Below are positions 21,457-29,933 of a stretch of DNA of 64,000 bases, piece by piece; within the stretch, counting starts at the first letter, position 1; every line of letters begins with the position of its first letter. The notes below the pieces were generated by a model. The model was not told the DNA's origin and did no database searches. It was given only the letters and a program-made list of their open reading frames with translations. Position numbers and translations under genes: made by a program. This stretch comes from the human T2T-CHM13v2.0 reference genome, Homo sapiens, in assembly GCF_009914755.1 (NCBI RefSeq), contig NC_060937.1. One strand, given 5' to 3'.

Positions 21457-22921
21457 CATAGAAGTTTAGTTTGATACCTATAAAATCTGTGTTCTCTTTA
21501 ACCTTTTGAAACACTTGCTAATGAATCACAAAGATAAAAGTCTTTCAAATGTATACACTGAAAACCTATGTAACACTGACAAAATGAAAGTTCTTTAGTC
21601 TCTCCCCACCTTTAAATCGAAGAAGTCATTGAGTGAGGATTTAGACTTAAAAGCAATTGTGACTTGCCTATGACTTGCTTGTTATGATGTCACCTTTACC
21701 CAAGATTTACTTTGGAACCTATGATTCATTCTGGCATTTTTACATGTCTTTTAATTGTCCAAGTTCAGACTTGGGTTTTTGGTATCTCTAAACTTATCAT
21801 CGCTAAGAGTCCTTTGTAATAGTCTTTCAAAATTAATGAATCAAATGCTGGTGAGCACATGAATTTCTGAAGCATATATTTTTTTAAAGCCAGGCTTTAA
21901 AAGTCAAGGGTGATAAGAAAGAGGATCAAGTAAGTGCTACAGCCAATAATCCAACTCACTCTTCAGTGCTTCTGAATTTAAAATTAGAAGTGTTTCACTA
22001 CACCTGAATTACTTGAATTACTTTGGCTCAGATAAGTAATTCTAATAGATCAACCCTAGAGATAAACACCTAACTTTAAAATTAGACTCACTGAAATGTC
22101 TGCTCTCCTCAAAATATCATTTTACAGGTTGAAGATGTTGTCCTATGAAAATCTAAGATGAGAAACACATTATGTATGATACATTACATGCAACATATAA
22201 ACTTGACTCACTTCTCAACATTTCACATTTTTGTGTATTTATACAGTTAAAATACAATTCAATGGACTCCTCATTATACTTGTATAACTCTAAAGGGAAA
22301 TAGTAGAAATAACAGTTATTGTAGTGTTATGCTACTGAAAAAAACTAGTTAGCTTAAGTCAAAGGATAGAAAAATGGAATGGTAAGCAATTACTGAATCA
22401 TTAAAAGAAAGGAAGAGCTAGATTCCATGAAGCAAGAGATCAAAGGAATAAAACTCAAGCAGAGGTAAATTCATTGCTAGCTCTATTCCCCTTAATGCAA
22501 TAAAACAAATGAAGAATCAGTTAAGTAGAGAGTACTTTCCATTATATCCAACATACTAATCATTTCTACCCTTCAATGGCTTGTCAAATTTCCATAAGTA
22601 AAAAGCATTATTAATATAGAAGTACAGTACATGACCATATTTTTCCTTAGGGATCATGCAATTTCAGAAATTATTAGAGATGGGAGTTAACATTCCTACC
22701 TACTCCAGCAAATACCCTTGGGTAGAATGCAAAAGTAAAAAGTGATGTAAATAAACATGGAAGAGCAAATCAGATAAACATGGGGTAAAATGGATATGTA
22801 GAGATACTCTACTATAATTTATCAAATCTGTTGTTAATCTATTGAAAAATCTGGGTATGTCATCTTCAAATTGACTACAAAACATGATTGTATTTTCCAA
22901 ATGGTTAGAAGTAGACACTAT

Positions 22922-23674
22922 TGAAAGGTGACAACGTGTTAGCAGCCCTGGCTCGCTCTTGGCGCTTCCTACGCCTTAACATCCACTCTGGCTGCGGTCC
23001 AGGAGCCCTTCAGCCCGCCGCTGCACCATGTGGGCCCCTCTCTGGGGCTGGCCAAGGCCAGAGCCGGCTCCCTCTGTTCCTGGGGAGGTGTGGAGGGAGA
23101 GGTGCAGGCGGGAGCCAGGGCTGCATGTGGTGCTCGCGGGCCAACACAGGTTCCCGGTGGGTGCAGGCTCCACGAGCCCCACTCTCAGTGCGTCCTGCCG
23201 GTGCCTGCTGGGCTAGATCAGGGAATGAGCTTGCTCTGGGCTGCCAGAGTGCCCGGGCTAGGTGCAGAAAAGTCCTGCAGTGAGTGACAGTGAGAGGTGA
23301 AGCCAGCTGGGCTTCTGGAACAGGTAGGGACTTGGAGAACTTTTGTGTCTAGCTAAAAAATTGTAAATGCACCAATCAGCGCTCTGTGTCTAGCTAATGG
23401 AGTGGGGACTTGGAGAACTTTTGTGTCTAGGTAAAGGATTGTAAATGCACCAATCAGCACACTCTATCTAGCTAAAGGTTTGTAAACGCACCAATCAGCA
23501 CTCTGTGTCTAGCTAATCAGGTGGGGGCATGGAGAACTTTTGTGACTAGCTAAAGGACTGAAAACGCACCAATGAGCACTCTGTGTTTAGCTAAAGGTTT
23601 GTAAATGCACCAATCAGCTCTCTGTAAAATGGAACAATCAGCAGGATGCGGGTGGGGCCAGATAAGGGTGAATA
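22922..23674 (+). promoter_or_regulatory. 5' LTR12 U3 with CCAAT enhancer repeats, truncated at the AATAAAA TATA-like box
   Basis: tgaaaggtgacaacgtg start; repeated tagctaaagg.ttgtaaa.gcaccaatcagc units; ends at gggccagataaggg(t)gaata, where the 3' LTR continues aaagcaggcc. Confidence 0.9.
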
Positions 23675-23815
23675 CGGGGAGTAAGAGCCAGCCCCTCCCC
23701 CCCCCCGCTCCCCGGCTATTAAGACCCACATCGCAAAGGGGTGAGGCACCCCCCACCATATGGGGAGTAAAAGCCAGCCCCTCTCCCATCCTGGTTATTA
23801 CGACCCACGGTGGAC
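23672..23815 (+). repeat. GC-rich ~80-bp satellite units (SATR1-like), left terminal block
   Basis: ggggagtaagagccagcccct...ctatta.gacccacatcgca...gtgaggcacc, about 1.7 copies. Confidence 0.8.
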
Positions 23816-23824
23816 TCACAGCCT

Positions 23825-24715
23825 GTTTACGATATTGGGAGTAATATCATCTCCCCCTCTGGAAATTATGAACTATTTCACAGACGAGTGTACACCCTCC
23901 GTGTACAGAGGGTGTACACCCGTCTGTATTGGGAGTAATATCATCCTCTTCCTCCCTGAATATTCAGAACAGTATCACAGGAGTGTTTCTACTCCCTGCG
24001 ATATTGGGTGTCATATCCTCCTCTCCCACGTGGAAATTAGAAACAATATCAGTGGGGGCGTGTACACCGTCTGTGATATTTAAAGTAATATCATCCTCTT
24101 CCCTCCAGGATCATGGGAACAATATCCCTGGGGTGTGTACACTTTCTGCGATATATGTAGTAATATCACCCCCTCTGCCTTGGAATATTATTAAGGACCA
24201 TCTCACACGGGGATGTACACTTCCTGCGATATTGGGAGTAATATCAACCTCTCCGCCTCTGAATATTAGGAACAATATCACAGGGTGGGTGTACACCTCC
24301 TGCTCTATTATGGGGAGTAATACCTATCATGGGGAGTAATATCATCCTCTCCCTTTCAGGATATTAATAACAATATCACAGGGTGGGTGGACACAGCCTG
24401 CGATACTGGAATTATTATCATCCTCTCCCCCTCAGGATACTAGGAACAATATCACAGAAGAGGTGTACACTCCCTGCGGTATTGGGAGTAATATCATACA
24501 CTTCTTCCGTGAATATTAGGAGCAATATCACCGGGTGGCTGTACATTCATTGCTATGTTGGGAGTCATGTCATACTCTACCCCCTGGATATTAGGATCAG
24601 TGTCACAGGGTGAGTGTACACCTACTGTGATATTAAAACTAATATCATGCTCACCATCCCTGGATAATAGAAACTATCACAGGTAGGTGTACATCCCCTG
24701 CGGTATTAGGAATAA
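23825..24715 (+). repeat. ~75-bp satellite array (SATR1/SATR2-like), about 12 units, forward
   Basis: Unit GATATTgggagtAATATCatcctctccc..gGATATTaggaacAATATCacagggggtgtacaccccctgc. Confidence 0.88.
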
Positions 24716-25100
24716 TAATATTATTAATTATTAAACAGTCTTAATATTATTAATTATTAAACATCAGTCTTAATATCAATGGTAATATTAATTCATAATA
24801 TACGTTATTAATCATTAATGATTATTTTAAATATATGATTATGCATGATTAAATTATTGCTATTGATGTCATTTTTAATATTAGTTATTAATCGTAATAT
24901 TATAGTTTTATTACCAAATACTTATGACTGATTTAATCAACATTAATTATATCATTATTTCATTATTAATAGTGATATTGCTATTATTAATAGTAATCAT
25001 TAATATTTTTAATCCGTATTAACTTTTACTATCTCTATTGTAATTATTAATATCGATGATTACTATTAATTGTTATATTTATTAATATTAATAATATAAC
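24716..25100. repeat. Very AT-rich low-complexity core between the inverted satellite arms
   Basis: Runs of attatt/taat/aatatt with few G or C. Confidence 0.9.
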
Positions 25101-26095
25101 TGTTCCCGATATCCGTGGGGGAGAGGATATTACTCCCAATATCGCAGAAAGTGTACAGCCCTCTATGATGTTACTCCTAATAGCCAGGGCGTAGAGGATG
25201 ACATTATTGAAAATATCGCAGTGGATGTACATCCGTTCAGTCATCTTGTTCCTAGTATCCTGGGTGGGAGTGGATGATATGACTCCCAATATCGAAGAGG
25301 GCATAGACCTCCCCCGTGATACTGTCCCTAACATCCAAAGGTGGAGAGGATGATATTTCTTCCAGTTTCGCAGGGGTTGTACACCACTCCTGTGATATTG
25401 ATCCTAATATCCAGGGGGCGAGAGGATGATCTTAGTCTCACTATTGCAGGAGGTGTACACTCCCTAGGGATATTGTTCCTAATATCCAGGGACAGAGAGG
25501 ATGATATCACTCCCAATATAGCAGGGAATGGACACCCCTTCTGTGACATTGTTCCTAATAGCCAGCAGGGGAGAGGAAGATATTACCCCCAATATCACAG
25601 GGGGTATGCACCCCCTTGTGATATTGTTCCTTATATCCTGGGAGGGAGAGGATGATATTAGTGGAAATATCCCAGGGGCTGTACACACCTACTGTGATAT
25701 TGTTCCAAATATCCTGACGGGGGAAAATGATATTACTCACAATATCGCGGGGGGTATATATCCTCCTGTGATATTGTTTCTTATATTCAGGGGGAGAGGA
25801 TGATATTACTCGAAATATGACAGTGGCTTTACACCCCATCTGTGATATTGCTCCTAATTTCCAGCAGCTAAAGTAGGATGTTCCTCCCAATAGAGCAGTG
25901 GGTGGACACTTGCCCTGTGATATTTCCCCGACTATTCAGGGAAACCCAGGATGACATGACCGCAAATCCCACAAAAAGTGTACACCCATTGTGTGATATG
26001 GTTCCTAATATGCGGAGGTGCAGAGGATGATATTAGTTTTCATATCACAGGCTGCGTACACACACCCTGTGAAATTGTTCCTAAGAGCAGGAAAA
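25101..26095 (-). repeat. ~75-bp satellite array, about 13 units, reverse orientation
   Basis: gagaggatGATATTactcccAATATCgcaggggg.gtacacccc.tgtGATATTgttcctAATATCcagg is the reverse complement of the left-arm unit. Confidence 0.88.
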
Positions 26096-26119
26096 AAGAG
26101 AATGCTAATAAAGGACAGA

Positions 26120-26357
26120 GATCACAGGGGGGTGAGGCACCCCCCCCCCCGCGATACAGGGAGTAAGAGCCAGCCCCTCTCCCCCGCCCCGGCTATTACG
26201 ACCCACATCGCAGGGGTGTGAGGCACCCTCCGCGATACGGGGAGTAAGAGCCAGCCCCTCTCCCCCCGCTGGGCATTACGACCCATATTGCAGGCATGTG
26301 AGGCACCCTCCGCGATACGGGGAGTGAGAGCCAGCCCCTCTCCACCCCCGCCCGGCT
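26120..26357 (+). repeat. GC-rich ~80-bp satellite units, right terminal block (3 copies)
   Basis: gcgatac at 26151, 26232 and 26312; same orientation as the left terminal block. Confidence 0.85.
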
Positions 26358-26980
26358 TATACTGCCAAAGCCATCAAAAAGGGGAAGGAGAGGGGAGAAC
26401 AGCAGCATAAGTGGCTGGCACAGGCAGAGAAATGCCTGCAGAGAGAAAAAGACAGAAAGTCAAAGAGAGTGAGACAGAGAGGAAGAGACAGACAGAAAGT
26501 CAAAGAGAGAAGGAGAAATGGAGGTAGTGGGGAGAAAAAAGTGTACCTTATTCCTTTAAAAGCCAGGGTAAATTTAAAATGAATAATTGATAATTGAAGA
26601 TCTCTGTAATCCTGTGACACTCCAATGCCACCTTGCTGTCAGTGTATTCAGGGGCGTGGCCCGAGAGCGCTGAGGCCACTGAAGGCCAGTAGCCTAATAA
26701 TTAGGCCAGTAGGCCTAATAATTGGTCTGCTCAAATGTGTGAGCTGTTTGCACTCAGCCAAACCTTGAAGTACTTACAGAATCAGGAAGGAGCCATCTAT
26801 ACTAATTCTAAGTTAATATGGACTGAACGAGGTCTTATTAATAACAAAGAATAATAATTGAAATCCCAAACTTACTAACCTAAAGTAAGTTTGCTAAAAT
26901 TTCACAGTGTAACATATATTATCCTAACTTTTAATCTTATGGAAATCAAACACTATAAGTACCCCTCAAAGCTTAAGTCC
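26358..26980 (+). mobile_element. ERV9 internal remnant (deleted pol-to-env region)
   Basis: tatactgccaaagccatcaaaaaggggaaggagaggggagaacagcagcataag and cctttaaaagccagggtaaattt resemble recalled HERV9 internal sequence; runs directly into env. Confidence 0.7.
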
Positions 26981-26982
26981 AT

Positions 26983-27565
26983 CAGCGCAGAGCCATACAA
27001 CTAATACCCCTACTTATAGGGTTAGGAATGGCTACTGCTACAGGAACCGGAATAGCCAGTTTATCTACTTCATTATCCTGCTACCACACACTCTCAAAGG
27101 ATTTCTCAGACAGTCTGCAAGAAATGAAGAAATCTATCCTTACTGAAGAAATCTATCCTTACTCTGCAGTCTCAAATAGACTCTTTAGAAGCAGTGACTC
27201 TCCAAAACCGCCGAGGCCTAGACCTCCTCACTGTTGAGAAAGGAGGATTCTGCACCTTCTTAGGGGAAGAGTGTTGTTTTTACACTAACCAGTCAGGGAT
27301 AGTACGAGATGCTACACGGCATTTACAGGAAAAGGCTTCTGAAATCAGACAATGCCTTTCAAACTCTTATACCAACCTCTGGAGTCGGGCAACATGGCTT
27401 CTCCCCTTTCTACGTCCCATAGCAGCCATCTTGCTGTTACTCACCTTTGGACCCTGTATTTTCAACCTTCTTGTCAAATTTGTTTCCTCTAGAGTCCAGG
27501 CCATCAAGCTACAGATGGTCTTACAAATGGAACCCCAAATTAGCTCAACTAATAACTTCTACTGA
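26983..27565 (+). pseudogene. env: ERV9 env transmembrane subunit, frameshifted
   Basis: RRAIQLIPLLIGLGMATATGTGIA (cleavage site/fusion peptide), immunosuppressive domain LQNRRGLDLLT, CX6CC (CTFLGEECC), TM helix; 19-bp duplication frameshift at 27125-27162. Confidence 0.93.
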
Positions 27566-27733
27566 GGACCTCTGGACTGATCCGCTGGCCCTTCCACTGG
27601 TCTAAAGAGTTCCCCTCTGGAGAACACTACAACTACAAGGCCCCGTTTTCACCCCTATCCAGCAGGAAGTAGCTAGAGCGGTCATCGGCCAAATTCCCAA
27701 CAGCAGTTGGGGTGTCCTGTTTAGAGGGGCGAT

Positions 27734-28760
27734 TGAGAGGTGACAACGTGCTGGCAGCCCCCGCTTGCTCTTGGTGCCTCCTCAGCCTTGGCATCTGCTC
27801 TGGCCATGCTCAAGGAGCCCTTCAGCCTGCCACTACGCCATGGGGGCCACTCTCTGGGGCTGGCTGAGGCTGGAGCTGGCTCCCTCTGCTCATGGGGAGG
27901 TGTGGAGAGAGAGGTGTGGGCAGGAGCCTGGGCTGTGCATGGCCTTCACGGGCCAGTGCTGGTTCCTGGTGGGTGTGGTCTCTGCCAGCCCCACACTCAG
28001 TGCAGCCAGCCAGCGCCTGCTGGGCTGGATTGGGGGATGAGCTCCCTCTGGGCTGCCTGAGTGCCTGGGCTAGGTGCCACAAAGTCCTGCAGCAAGTGCC
28101 AGCGAGAGGTGAAGCTAGCTGGGCTTCTGGGATGGGTGGGGACTTGGAGAACTTTTGTGTCTTGCTAAAGGATTGTAAATGCACCAATCAGCACTCTGTG
28201 TTTAGCTAAAGGTTTATAAACGCACCAATCAGCACTCTGTCAAAACGGACCAATCAGCTCTCTGTAAAATGCACCAATCAGGTGTGTGTAAAATGCACAA
28301 CAGCAGGATGTGGGTGGGGCCAGATAAGGGAATAAAAGCAGGCCACCTGAGCTAGCAGTGGCAACCCGCTTGGGTCCGCTTCCACGCTGTGAAGCTTTGT
28401 TCTTTCACTCTTTGCAATAAATCTTGGTGCTGCTCACTCTTTGGGTCCGTGCCACCTTTATGAGCTGTAACACTCACCACGAAGGTCTGCAGCTTCACTT
28501 CTGAGGCCAGCGAGACCAAGAACCCAGTGGAAGGAATGAACAACTAAGATGCGTAACACTCACTGCAAAGGTCTGTAGCTTCACTCCTGAAGTCAGCGAG
28601 ACCACGAACCCACCAGAAGGAAGAATCTCTGGACACATCTGAACATCTGAAGGAAAAAACTCCGGACACACCATCTTTAAGAACTGTAATACTCACTGGG
28701 AGGGTCTGTGGCTTCATTCTTAAAGTCAGAGAGACCAAGAACCCACCAATTCCGGAAACA
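27734..28760 (+). promoter_or_regulatory. Complete 3' LTR12
   Basis: Follows polypurine tract ttagaggggcgat; starts tgagaggtgac; CCAAT repeats, gataagggaataaaagc, polyA gcaataaatc, U5 repeats; ends aattccggaaaca. Confidence 0.95.
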
Positions 28761-29569
28761 CTATTTCATGGTCTGTTATAATATGGAATGATATGCAAAG
28801 TTAATTATTTCAGTTTATACATGAACAAAGTAAAACCTTAAAGTTTTCTTTGATGTTCCACAGGCTTTTACTCTTTCCTAGACCCTTGGTCACCCATATT
28901 CCTCAGAAAGTTGTGCAGCCATTTTGTGTTCTCTTATGCACCGCTCACCACTGAAGTGTCCAATGTAGCGTCAGTTTACCCTTTTAGGTAACATCCATGT
29001 TCTACTTGTTATATCAGTACTCTGCCTTCAAAATGGAATTCCTCCGTTTGACCCATTTCTCAACAGAAGGTTCTTTTCTGGGCTAGGTCAAATCCATTAA
29101 GCTGAAAAACGTATCCATGCTAATGATCAGTCATAGGTTAATTGCTCACCCCATTTGAAAGTATATGTTCATTATAACAGGCATTTCTAGGCATTATCTT
29201 AATCTGTGGTTTATTGAAGAAATTTCAGATACCATAATAGATGACATATAGTGAAGTGCATAGATGATTAAGATTTTCTAAGGACATTCCAAGTGAGAGG
29301 TAAAATAAAGAACAGCAAAATAGAATGGATTCCAACACCCTGCTTCAAAACTCAGAGATATAAAAAGGGTTCATAGGCATACCACTTGGGAAATTGTTGA
29401 TAAAATCCCCAAAACATTAAGCTGATGAGAGATATGGTTAGATGGTTTTAGAAGTCTTCTATCTACATAAATGTGAAGTCAGTTTCCTTGGAAGCCACTT
29501 CAGTAACTGATATGGTTTGGTTGTATCTCCACCCAAATCTCATCTTGAATTGGAAGCCACTTCAGTAAC

Positions 29570-29933
29570 TGATATGGTTTGGTTGTATCTCCACCCAAAT
29601 CTCATCTTGAATTGTAGCTCTCATAATTCCCATGTGTTGTGGGAGGGACTCGGTGGGAGGTAATCGAATCATGGGGACGGGTATTTCTTTTTCTTGTAAT
29701 AGTGAATAAGTCTCATGAGATCTGATGGTTTTATAAAGGGGAGTTCCCCTGCACATGCTCTCTTACCTGCCACCTTATAAGTAAGACGTGGCTTTGCTCC
29801 TCTTTCACCTTCTGCCATGACAGTGAGGCCTCCCCAGCCATGTGGAATTCTAAGTCAATTAAACCTCCTTTCCTTTATAAATTACTCAGCCTTGAGTATG
29901 TCTTTATTAGCAGTGTGAGAACAGACTAATACA
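29570..29933 (+). mobile_element. THE1-family MaLR solo LTR; its first 42 bp also duplicated at 29508-29549
   Basis: tgatatggtttgg..ccacccaaatctcatcttgaattgtag ... cagactaataca. Confidence 0.92.

What the first reader, a model, noticed from the sequence alone, without database searches (positions are those of the whole stretch)
23672..26357. Symmetric 2.7-kb satellite cassette replaces the inside of an ERV9 provirus
Seen: the block reads [GC-rich 80-bp units, forward] - [~12 x 75-bp units, forward] - [~385-bp AT-rich core] - [~13 x 75-bp units, reversed] - [3 GC-rich 80-bp units, forward]. It has direct terminal repeats around a ~2.3-kb imperfect inverted repeat. It starts exactly at the 5' LTR12 TATA-like box (shared 'ata') and ends in ERV9 internal sequence (shared 'ct', judged from recalled consensus), with no TSD. 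The R/U5, PBS, gag and most of pol are missing, yet the provirus TSD (CTAT) is intact. Known: the units resemble SATR1/SATR2 satellites (from recall). Inference: a 5' LTR lacking R/U5/PBS cannot be a normal reverse-transcription product, so the cassette arrived after integration, as break-repair filler or as a discrete satellite module that disperses as a unit. Repeat arms flanking an easily unwound core resemble iteron/DUE origin layouts, but that analogy is speculative.
Basis: partly seen in the sequence, partly recalled or inferred. Interest (0 to 1): 0.8.

Follow-up and report, generated by a model that had tools for sequence, protein, structure and literature searches.

The report
SATR satellite unit inside ERV9 provirus
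One repeat period of a known human composite satellite (SATR1/SATR2 type) sits in an old endogenous retrovirus in place of about 5 kb of viral sequence, most likely as DNA-repair filler; it is a tidy example of how this satellite spreads, not a new kind of element.

Summary
The anatomy holds. The block runs from two GC-rich 80-mers through 12 forward 75-mers, a 383-bp core (15% GC) and 14 reversed 75-mers to three GC-rich 80-mers.

It lies between a 5' LTR12 cut just before its TATA-like box and ERV9 sequence that resumes at the end of gag. The CTAT target-site duplication is intact and both outer flanks are unique in the genome.

The block is not peculiar to this locus:
- The core with its arm edges recurs full length at 34 other loci on 10 chromosomes.
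- The same part order was found in all 19 fetched core loci, mostly as tandem periods.
- Papers place SATR1/SATR2 at the edges of the Xiao/DA duplicons. A macaque T2T preprint describes a very similar SATR core unit.
- No other copy examined adjoins LTR12 or ERV9, and both junctions are unique.

Best reading: one satellite period was captured after integration, replacing about 5.3 kb of provirus. The joins show 0-3 bp of microhomology and no duplication.

The origin analogy has no support. One open point remains: left ends of these blocks cluster within 18 nt of one GC-rich unit.

The parts
22918..22921 (.). Left copy of the provirus target-site duplication, CTAT
   Evidence: Sequence strings. 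The same four bases follow the 3' LTR.
22922..23668 (+). 5' LTR12, U3 only, cut just before the TATA-like box; R and U5 are absent
   Evidence: Aligns to the 3' LTR: 393/481 with no gaps, and 89-93% over the U3 repeats. 38 of 39 other LTR12 copies scored stop matching at or before 23668, one at 23675. Its best non-self hit in the genome is its own 3' LTR, 82%.
23669..23671 (.). Three bases (TGA) assignable to neither side: filler, or mutated satellite or LTR
   Evidence: They lie between the end of LTR12 homology and the start of satellite homology.
23672..23814 (+). About 1.8 GC-rich 80-bp units, forward (GC 0.62); a GC-rich variant of the 75-mer
   Evidence: (D9, D12). Collinear with other loci from 23672.
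23815..24717 (+). Left arm: 12 forward 75-bp units (one enlarged by a 19-bp duplication, the last partial)
   Evidence: (D5: 12 copies). Its length is constant at about 870-900 bp in 19 of 19 other loci.
24718..25100 (+). AT-rich core, 383 bp, GC 0.151; single-copy-like and not itself palindromic
   Evidence: With its arm edges it recurs full length at 34 other loci at 76-87% identity. Its size fits the 'uniform ~377 bp SATR2' of the macaque preprint (passage); that equation is my inference.
25101..26110 (-). Right arm: 14 reversed 75-bp units (first and last partial)
   Evidence: Its length varies among loci: about 740 bp in 8, at least 1,580 bp in 10, truncated in 1.
26111..26357 (+). Transition plus three forward GC-rich 80-bp units (GC 0.676); the start of the next period of the higher-order repeat
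   Evidence: (D9, D12). The same arm-to-GC-unit order is seen in tandem loci.
26356..27733 (+). Remaining ERV9 internal sequence: end of gag, a short variable tandem repeat, an RNase H remnant and env TM; a deleted, non-coding ERV9 form shared with relatives
   Evidence: Homology to other ERV9 copies starts at 26356 in 8 of 11. Junction print-out. Collinearity. RNase_H match is weak (E 0.075, below cut-off).
27128..27565 (+). Open stretch encoding the env transmembrane part
   Evidence: Pfam TLV_coat, E 1.8e-39, profile positions 436-559 of 560.
27734..28760 (+). Complete 3' LTR12 (U3-R-U5)
28761..28764 (.). Right copy of the target-site duplication, CTAT
   Evidence: Sequence strings.

Best explanation
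The 2.69-kb block is one period, plus the first GC-rich units of the next, of the composite SATR satellite. Repeat libraries call its parts SATR1, a GC-rich SATR1 variant, and SATR2. Each period holds GC-rich 80-mers, a forward array of 75-mers, an AT-rich core of about 380 bp and a reversed array of 75-mers.

An ERV9 provirus of an already internally deleted subfamily integrated here and made the CTAT duplication. Later a DNA-level event removed about 5.3 kb, from just before the U3 TATA-like box to the end of gag, and put the satellite period in its place. That event was a break repaired by end joining with capture of a satellite fragment, or a replication template switch into a SATR array and back. 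The joins carry 0-3 bp of microhomology, possibly 3 filler bases, and no duplication.

Shown: the anatomy, the junctions, the recurrence of the module elsewhere, and the uniqueness of this locus. Inferred: the order of events, a single event, and the repair mechanism. I see no evidence that the block does anything here.
For: MODULE IDENTITY
- The core with arm edges recurs full length at 34 other loci on 10 chromosomes at 76-87% identity (only 40 of 332 candidates were scored).
- Collinear alignments run from 23672 to 25833-26084 at 84-88% identity.
- The same part order appears in 19 of 19 fetched loci and in three further loci.
- Many hits lie at 4p16, 11q13, 7p22, 12p13 and 3p12. Papers place SATR1/SATR2 at the edges of the Xiao/DA duplicons in such regions (passages in PMC5088589; PMC2700803).
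- The macaque T2T preprint describes a core unit of GC-rich SATR1v, inverted SATR1, an AT-rich repeat and forward SATR1, and uniform SATR2 pieces of about 377 bp (passages).
- PMC1794570 lists 2.3-2.6-kb 'SATR2' blocks on chr13 (passage).

INSIDE ONE PROVIRUS
- CTAT lies on both sides.
- The LTRs point the same way.
- The 5' LTR's best genomic hit is its own 3' LTR.
- env TM is present.

AFTER INTEGRATION
- R/U5/PBS/gag are missing, while 9 of 11 relatives continue upstream of the junction.
- In one relative, the stretch between the two junction-equivalent points is 5,257 bp.

NOT A FAMILY, NOT A DUPLICATION
- Both junction 40-mers are unique at up to 3 mismatches.
- No other top LTR12 hit crosses the junction.
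- Neither LTR12 nor ERV9 lies within 1.5 kb of the core at any of 19 other copies.
- Both outer flanks have a single genomic match.

OLD EVENT
- The window copy is 90-93% identical (gap-free) to all 16 other copies compared and sits near the midpoint of their tree.
- The LTR pair differs at 89 of 481 U3 sites.
Against: - No empty or intact orthologous site could be examined, so the order and the number of events are inferred.
- The LTR pair is no closer to each other (82%) than the 3' LTR is to some other LTR12 copies (83-84%). The pairing therefore rests mainly on a 4-bp duplication and on position.
- SATR names could not be checked against Dfam or RepeatMasker here.
- Both ends of the block fall in the GC-rich sub-arrays. 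Left ends of other blocks cluster nearby. That pattern fits a defined fragment better than a random slice.
- Genome searches scored only 40 candidates each, so a second LTR12-SATR junction older than about 8% divergence could have been missed.
Confidence: 0.75

Rival explanations
1. The SATR period is a discrete unit that moves on its own. For example, it could be released as a linear or circular extrachromosomal fragment with a preferred break site in the GC-rich unit and then re-inserted at breaks. The ERV9 copy would be one such landing.
For: - Five of six independent flank contexts have their left-most GC-rich unit starting within one 18-nt stretch of the 80-nt unit: the window, groups A, B and C, and the group D flank.
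- Flanks A, B and C are not satellite-like (z at most 1 against shuffles).
- The right end of group B lies at nearly the same phase as its own left end.
- The window block and group B are single periods with non-satellite DNA on both sides.
- Papers map duplication breakpoints to SATR1/SATR2 (PMC5088589 passages).
Against: - The window's right end is at a different phase, and in a different unit, from the only other right end seen.
- One context (chr9:102.93 Mb) starts at another phase.
- The group D flank is degenerate satellite (z = 4), so the 'terminus' may simply be where the GC-rich array naturally begins.
- Most copies lie in tandem arrays or within known segmental duplications, which explains their spread.
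- The sample is 6 contexts, and my rough binomial estimate is only p about 0.02.
- There is no target-site duplication.
Confidence: 0.15
2. Two or more separate events: the satellite first inserted into an otherwise complete provirus, and one or more later deletions removed R/U5 through gag up to the edge of the block.
For: Nothing in the sequence excludes it. The provirus is old and carries other small rearrangements: extra U3 repeats in the 5' LTR (D8) and a 19-bp duplication in env.
Against: This needs a deletion that ends exactly at a satellite edge while leaving satellite units intact up to that edge. A single replacement event is simpler.
Confidence: 0.1
3. The left LTR12 fragment and the right ERV9 part come from two different insertions flanking an older satellite block. 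The matching CTAT would then be chance.
For: The LTR pair is only 82% identical in the GC-rich U3. The 3' LTR has 16 better matches elsewhere among the 39 non-self hits scored.
Against: - A 4-bp match has a chance of 1 in 256.
- Orientation and order are those of one provirus.
- The 5' LTR's best genomic match is this 3' LTR.
- The AT-richer U3 parts agree at 89-97% (D17, 6).
- Neither fragment has a duplication of its own at the satellite edge.
Confidence: 0.03
4. The block works as a replication origin or another unwinding element, with repeat arms as binding sites around an easily melted core.
For: The core has GC 0.151. As single-stranded DNA the arms pair with each other: 543 of 979 predicted pairs, with energy far below the shuffles.
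Against: - Arm units are only about 74% alike, with no mirror correspondence (75.5% on the mirror diagonal against 74.1% overall).
- The core is not a palindrome.
- No binding, initiation or conservation data exist here.
- One paper lists SATR1 as a ZNF141 KRAB zinc-finger target, which points to silenced repeat DNA (passage).
Confidence: 0.02

Closest known systems
SATR1/SATR1v/SATR2 mixed-array core unit (macaque T2T preprint 10.1101/2025.08.04.668424; SATR1 variant in Hoyt et al. preprint 10.1101/2021.07.12.451456)
   Same: It has a GC-rich array, arrays of about 75-bp units in opposite orientations, an AT-rich piece of about 380 bp between them, and tandem repetition of the whole unit. The family is dispersed over many chromosomes.
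   Different: Here there is a single period in unique DNA, inside a provirus. The arm lengths (about 900 and 1,010 bp) differ from the macaque unit (589 and 191 bp).
SES (SATR-HERVE-SATR) flanking elements of the Xiao and DA duplicons (PMC2700803; PMC5088589)
   Same: The same satellite module is combined with a class I endogenous retrovirus. Homologous copies of the module lie at 4p16, 11q13 and 7p22.
   Different: In SES the satellites flank a HERV-E, and the composite is copied with large duplicons to about 30 loci. Here the satellite is inside an ERV9, replaces viral sequence, and the composite is unique.
Composite ERVs with internal repeats such as Harlequin and HERV39 (mentioned in PMC2700803 background)
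   Same: Repeat DNA lies within the body of an endogenous retrovirus.
   Different: Those are amplified families whose chimeric junctions recur. This junction pair occurs once. The 5' LTR lacks R/U5/PBS, so this copy could not have been made by reverse transcription in its present form.
Palindromic AT-rich repeats (PATRRs) of translocation breakpoints (recalled, not looked up here)
   Same: Inverted arms surround an AT-rich centre, and the predicted single-strand fold-back is strong.
   Different: PATRRs are near-perfect palindromes of a few hundred bp. Here the arms are about 74% alike at unit level, with no mirror register, and the core is not palindromic.

Membership tests
SATR1/SATR2 composite satellite | Sequence match to the Repbase/Dfam SATR1 and SATR2 consensus sequences | not testable with these tools
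   No RepeatMasker or Dfam library is on hand. Rfam found nothing in the block.
SATR1/SATR2 composite satellite | Homology to blocks at loci that the literature annotates as SATR1/SATR2 (edges of Xiao/DA duplicons; chr13 blocks of 2.3-2.6 kb) | tested here: met
   Matches of 84-88% and collinear at chr4 8.9-9.8 Mb, chr11 68-71.5 Mb, chr7 6.97 Mb, chr12 8.43 Mb and chr3 75.66 Mb. Passages in PMC5088589, PMC2700803 and PMC1794570. The link is by region, not by exact published coordinates.
SATR1/SATR2 composite satellite | Core-unit architecture: GC-rich array, SATR1 arrays in both orientations, an AT-rich piece of about 377 bp | tested here: met
   against the preprint passages.
ERV9 / LTR12 provirus | Two same-sense LTRs bounded by a 4-bp target-site duplication | tested here: met
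   LTR alignment. CTAT at 22918-22921 and 28761-28764. The 5' LTR is truncated.
ERV9 / LTR12 provirus | Complete 5' LTR (R, U5), primer-binding site, gag and pol | tested here: not met
   LTR12 homology ends at 23668. ERV9 resumes at the end of gag. The corresponding stretch is about 5.26 kb in one relative.
ERV9 / LTR12 provirus | Gammaretrovirus-type env transmembrane domain | tested here: met
   Pfam TLV_coat, E 1.8e-39.
Amplified chimeric ERV family (Harlequin-like) | The same ERV-repeat junctions recur at other insertion sites | tested here: not met
   Junction 40-mers are unique at up to 3 mismatches. No junction-spanning hit among the 40 scored candidates. Neither LTR12 nor ERV9 lies beside 19 other copies.
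Discrete mobile DNA unit | Target-site duplication at the block's ends | tested here: not met
   The bases outside the two junctions differ.
Discrete mobile DNA unit | Recurrent termini in unrelated flanks | tested here: inconclusive
   Left ends fall within 18 nt of one unit in 5 of 6 flank contexts. Right ends differ in the two cases seen.
Replication origin with iterons and an unwinding element | Initiator or ORC binding and initiation activity | not testable with these tools
Palindromic AT-rich repeat (PATRR) | Near-perfect palindrome centred on the AT-rich part | tested here: not met
   Mirror-diagonal unit identity is 75.5% against an overall 74.1%. The core has only short AT-rich inverted matches.
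Segmental duplication | Flanks and junctions present elsewhere in the genome | tested here: not met
   There is a single match for 22150-22917 and for 28765-29480.

The most novel reading that the evidence does not exclude
The SATR period is a discrete DNA unit with a preferred break or join site in its outer GC-rich unit. It can leave an array as a one-period fragment, linear or circular, and land alone in unique DNA. These landings would seed the SATR-bounded duplicons (Xiao/DA) that later reshape regions such as 8p23.1. On this reading the ERV9 copy is the cleanest landing known: both pre-insertion sequences are identifiable and an LTR clock is attached.
Probability: 0.15. Interest if true: 0.55.

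Novelty: new member of a known kind. Interest (0 to 1): 0.3.

Why it matters
SATR1/SATR2 blocks mark the edges and breakpoints of the Xiao/DA core duplicons, which are tied to 8p23.1 and related rearrangements. How the blocks reach new places is not known.

This copy is unusual in three ways. It is a single period in unique DNA. Both junctions are crisp, against sequence whose original state is known from other ERV9 copies. It is bracketed by an LTR pair that bounds its age.

That makes it a convenient test case for dating the event in other primates and for reading the repair signature. It does not by itself reveal a new mechanism or function.

Tried and rejected
- Rfam: it found only mir-1297 outside the block and nothing in the block or in three other copies. 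This was tried because one paper derives hsa-mir-3683 from SATR1 (passage), which might have tied the name to the sequence.
- A donor in cis: there is no other 75-mer or 80-mer unit anywhere else in the 64-kb window.
- A recent inverted duplication as the origin of the arms: rejected, because there is no mirror register between left and right units.
- G-quadruplex motifs as boundary markers: only one C-run motif (23692-23713) in the whole block, and none at the right end.
- Literature linking SATR1 with LTR12: 3 papers hold both words and 2 were listed. Neither title or abstract concerns such a composite (search listing only).
- A search for SATR with palindrome or eccDNA: none of the 10 listed papers holds SATR.
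- The T2T repeat preprint does not mention LTR12, HERV9 or ERV9 in its main text.
I worked with the 3.5-kb loci already held plus four smaller fetches.
Full report
WHAT IS THERE

The window is T2T-CHM13 chr13:53,506,001-53,570,000. Between 22918 and 28764 lies one ERV9 provirus.
- It is bounded by the 4-bp duplication CTAT, at 22918-22921 and 28761-28764 (strings).
- Its 3' LTR12 is complete (27734-28760).
- Its 5' LTR12 holds U3 only, 22922-23668. 38 of 39 other LTR12 copies scored stop matching at or before 23668, a few bases before the TATA-like box, and one runs to 23675.
- From 26356 the sequence is again ERV9. 8 of 11 relatives begin to align exactly there. In the junction print-out 9 of 11 carry further ERV9 sequence immediately upstream; one was misplaced and one gave no hit.
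- The retained 1.38 kb runs from the end of gag, through a short variable tandem repeat and an RNase H remnant (Pfam E 0.075, below cut-off), to the env transmembrane part (TLV_coat, E 1.8e-39).
- The relatives are collinear with this stretch. The absence of RT, integrase and env-SU is therefore a property of this deleted ERV9 subfamily, not of the event studied here.

THE BLOCK ITSELF (23672-26357)

| Part | Span | Content | GC |
|---|---|---|---|
| Left GC-rich units | 23672-23814 | about 1.8 forward 80-mers | 0.62 |
| Left arm | 23815-24717 | 12 forward 75-mers | 0.44 |
| Core | 24718-25100 | 383 bp, AT-rich | 0.151 |
| Right arm | 25101-26110 | 14 reversed 75-mers | 0.454 |
| Right GC-rich units | 26111-26357 | short transition, then three forward 80-mers | 0.676 |

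- The 80-mer is a GC-rich relative of the 75-mer in left-arm orientation (D9).
- The 75-mer is itself quasi-palindromic, so forward and reversed units also match directly at 60-71% (D2). Inverted matches are better (70-84%) and GC skew changes sign across the core, so the inversion is real.
- Left and right units show no mirror register: 75.5% on the mirror diagonal against 74.1% overall. The arms are therefore two old arrays of opposite sense, not a recent fold-back copy.
- The core is not a palindrome.
- As single-stranded DNA the block is predicted to fold arm on arm: 543 of 979 pairs, at -561.8 kcal/mol against -316 to -343 for 5 segment-wise shuffles.

IT IS A COPY OF A DISPERSED, KNOWN MODULE

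A 531-bp query covering the core and both arm edges finds 34 other full-length matches at 76-87% identity. They lie on chromosomes 2, 3, 4, 7, 9, 11, 12, 13, 14 and 22. There are also near-full or partial matches, including one on chr5. Only 40 of 332 candidates were scored, so these are lower bounds.

For the 19 loci fetched around these matches:
- The window block aligns collinearly from 23672 to between 25833 and 26084 at 84-88%.
- All 19 show the same order: GC-rich units, forward arm, core, reversed arm.
- The left arm is constant at about 870-900 bp in 19 of 19.
- The right arm is about 740 bp in 8, at least 1,580 bp in 10, and truncated in 1. The window's is 1,010 bp.
- GC-rich arrays range from 64 bp to more than 650 bp.
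- In 5 of 19 a second forward arm follows the right GC-rich units. In 5 of 19 a reversed arm precedes the left ones (one locus shows both).
- Three further loci (chr2:71.05 Mb, chr13:40.6 Mb, chr9:102.93 Mb) are likewise tandem.
- On chr9 the cores repeat every 4.3 kb.

So the 'direct terminal repeats' are the GC-rich sub-array of one period and of the next. The block is one period plus about 2.5 units of the next.

NAMING

I could not run RepeatMasker.
- Xiao/DA duplicons are bounded by 'SATR-HERVE-SATR' elements, where SATR stands for SATR1 and SATR2 (PMC2700803, passages and background section).
- 8p23.1 duplication breakpoints map to SATR1/SATR2 (PMC5088589, passages).
- SATR2 blocks of 2.3-2.6 kb are listed on chr13 (PMC1794570, passage).
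- A macaque T2T preprint describes core units made of a GC-rich SATR1 variant, an inverted SATR1 array, an AT-rich repeat and a forward SATR1 array. It also describes uniform SATR2 pieces of about 377 bp between SATR1 arrays (10.1101/2025.08.04.668424, passages).

Equating the 383-bp core with SATR2, and the 80-mers with the GC-rich SATR1 variant, is my inference.

THIS COMBINATION IS UNIQUE

- Both junction 40-mers occur once in the genome at up to 3 mismatches.
- A junction-spanning query finds only itself across the join.
- None of the 19 other copies has LTR12 or ERV9 within 1.5 kb of the core.
- 768 bp upstream and 716 bp downstream of the provirus each match the genome once.
- No other satellite unit lies in the 64-kb window.

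The locus is therefore neither a segmental duplication nor a member of an amplified chimeric ERV family.

HOW IT GOT THERE

A provirus made by reverse transcription has two complete LTRs. A 5' LTR lacking R/U5, with no PBS or gag behind it, must have been altered afterwards.

In one relative (chr11:85.54 Mb), the distance between the points corresponding to the two junctions is 5,257 bp. So 2.69 kb of satellite stands where about 5.3 kb of provirus stood.

The joins are:
- Left: end of LTR12 homology, three unassignable bases (TGA), then satellite.
- Right: satellite and ERV9 share 'ct'.

There is no duplication around the block. This is the signature of end joining with capture of a fragment, or of a template switch into a SATR array and back. 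I cannot tell these two apart, nor prove a single event.

AGE

The event is old.
- The LTR pair differs at 89 of 481 aligned U3 sites, or 15.9% outside CpG. In the AT-richer U3 repeats it differs by 7-11%.
- The block is 90-93% identical (gap-free) to each of 16 other copies and sits near the midpoint of their tree on a short branch (three loci with incomplete coverage were left out).
- The 5' LTR's best genomic match is its own 3' LTR (82%). The 3' LTR, however, has 16 slightly better matches elsewhere among the 39 non-self hits scored (83-84%). The LTR pairing therefore rests mostly on CTAT and on position.

THE OPEN POINT

The flanks of other copies fall into homology groups:
- A: chr9:0.1 Mb and chr2:113.9 Mb.
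- B: chr11:71.5 Mb and chr4, two loci.
- C: chr7:6.97 Mb and chr4:8.94 Mb.
- D: six loci on chr14, chr13 (two), chr9, chr7 and chr2.
- A sixth context: chr9:102.93 Mb.

In the window and in groups A, B, C and D, the left-most GC-rich unit starts within one 18-nt stretch of the 80-nt unit. The chr9:102.93 Mb copy starts elsewhere.
- Flanks A, B and C are not satellite-like (z at most 1). The D flank is degenerate satellite (z = 4).
- The right end of group B lies at nearly the same phase as its own left end.
- On chr4, the right end of group B and the left end of group C lie about 9.6 kb apart. They look like the two sides of one insertion into a GC-rich array, which fits the published SATR-HERVE-SATR layout.
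- The window's right end is at another phase.

With six contexts this clustering is suggestive, not established; my rough binomial estimate is p about 0.02. It may mean a preferred break site, or only that the GC-rich array naturally begins there.

VERDICT

The block is a single period of a known composite satellite, placed after integration into an old ERV9 by a repair-type event. The origin analogy has no support.

The block's value is as a clean, datable example of how SATR modules reach new sites. These modules mark duplicon edges elsewhere.

Noticed in passing
window 21992-22068 (-): MIR1297 precursor, confirmed by Rfam (mir-1297, 109.7 bits, full length). It lies about 850 bp upstream of the provirus. 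No link to the block was seen.
   Followed up: partly
window 29488-29614: A perfect tandem duplication of a 62-bp unit (2.0 copies, 100% matches), about 730 bp downstream of the provirus. Perfect identity suggests a recent event.
   Followed up: no
window 27125-27163: A perfect 19-bp tandem duplication (2.1 copies) inside the env transmembrane region of the ERV9 remnant.
   Followed up: no
window 26440-26520; L032-L042: A short tandem repeat near the gag end of ERV9 is present at varying copy number in other ERV9 copies, with several hits of the same query stretch per locus. The 11 relatives share the same large internal deletions, so a non-coding ERV9 form was widely amplified.
   Followed up: partly
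window 23344-23625 versus 28156-28240: The 5' LTR carries five copies of the 41/44-bp U3 repeat and the 3' LTR two. U3 up to the TATA-like box is therefore about 150 bp longer on the left (D8).
   Followed up: no
L018, L021, L024, L028, L043, L045: Six SATR loci on chr14, chr13 (two), chr9, chr7 and chr2 share a homologous left flank of degenerate satellite ending '...AGGAAAAAT' before the GC-rich array (75-92% identical between loci). This points to a larger ancestral unit than the period itself.
   Followed up: partly
L023 (chr4:8.925 Mb) and L027 (chr4:8.937 Mb): The right end of one SATR block and the left end of the next lie about 9.6 kb apart, at nearly the same phase of the GC-rich unit. 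It looks as if the DNA between them was inserted into one GC-rich array, which fits the published SATR-HERVE-SATR layout.
   Followed up: partly
G000 chr12:30.992-30.998 Mb and chr9:77.051-77.058 Mb: Long arrays made only of the GC-rich 80-bp unit (dozens of hits over about 6 kb each), without interspersed cores in the hit list.
   Followed up: no
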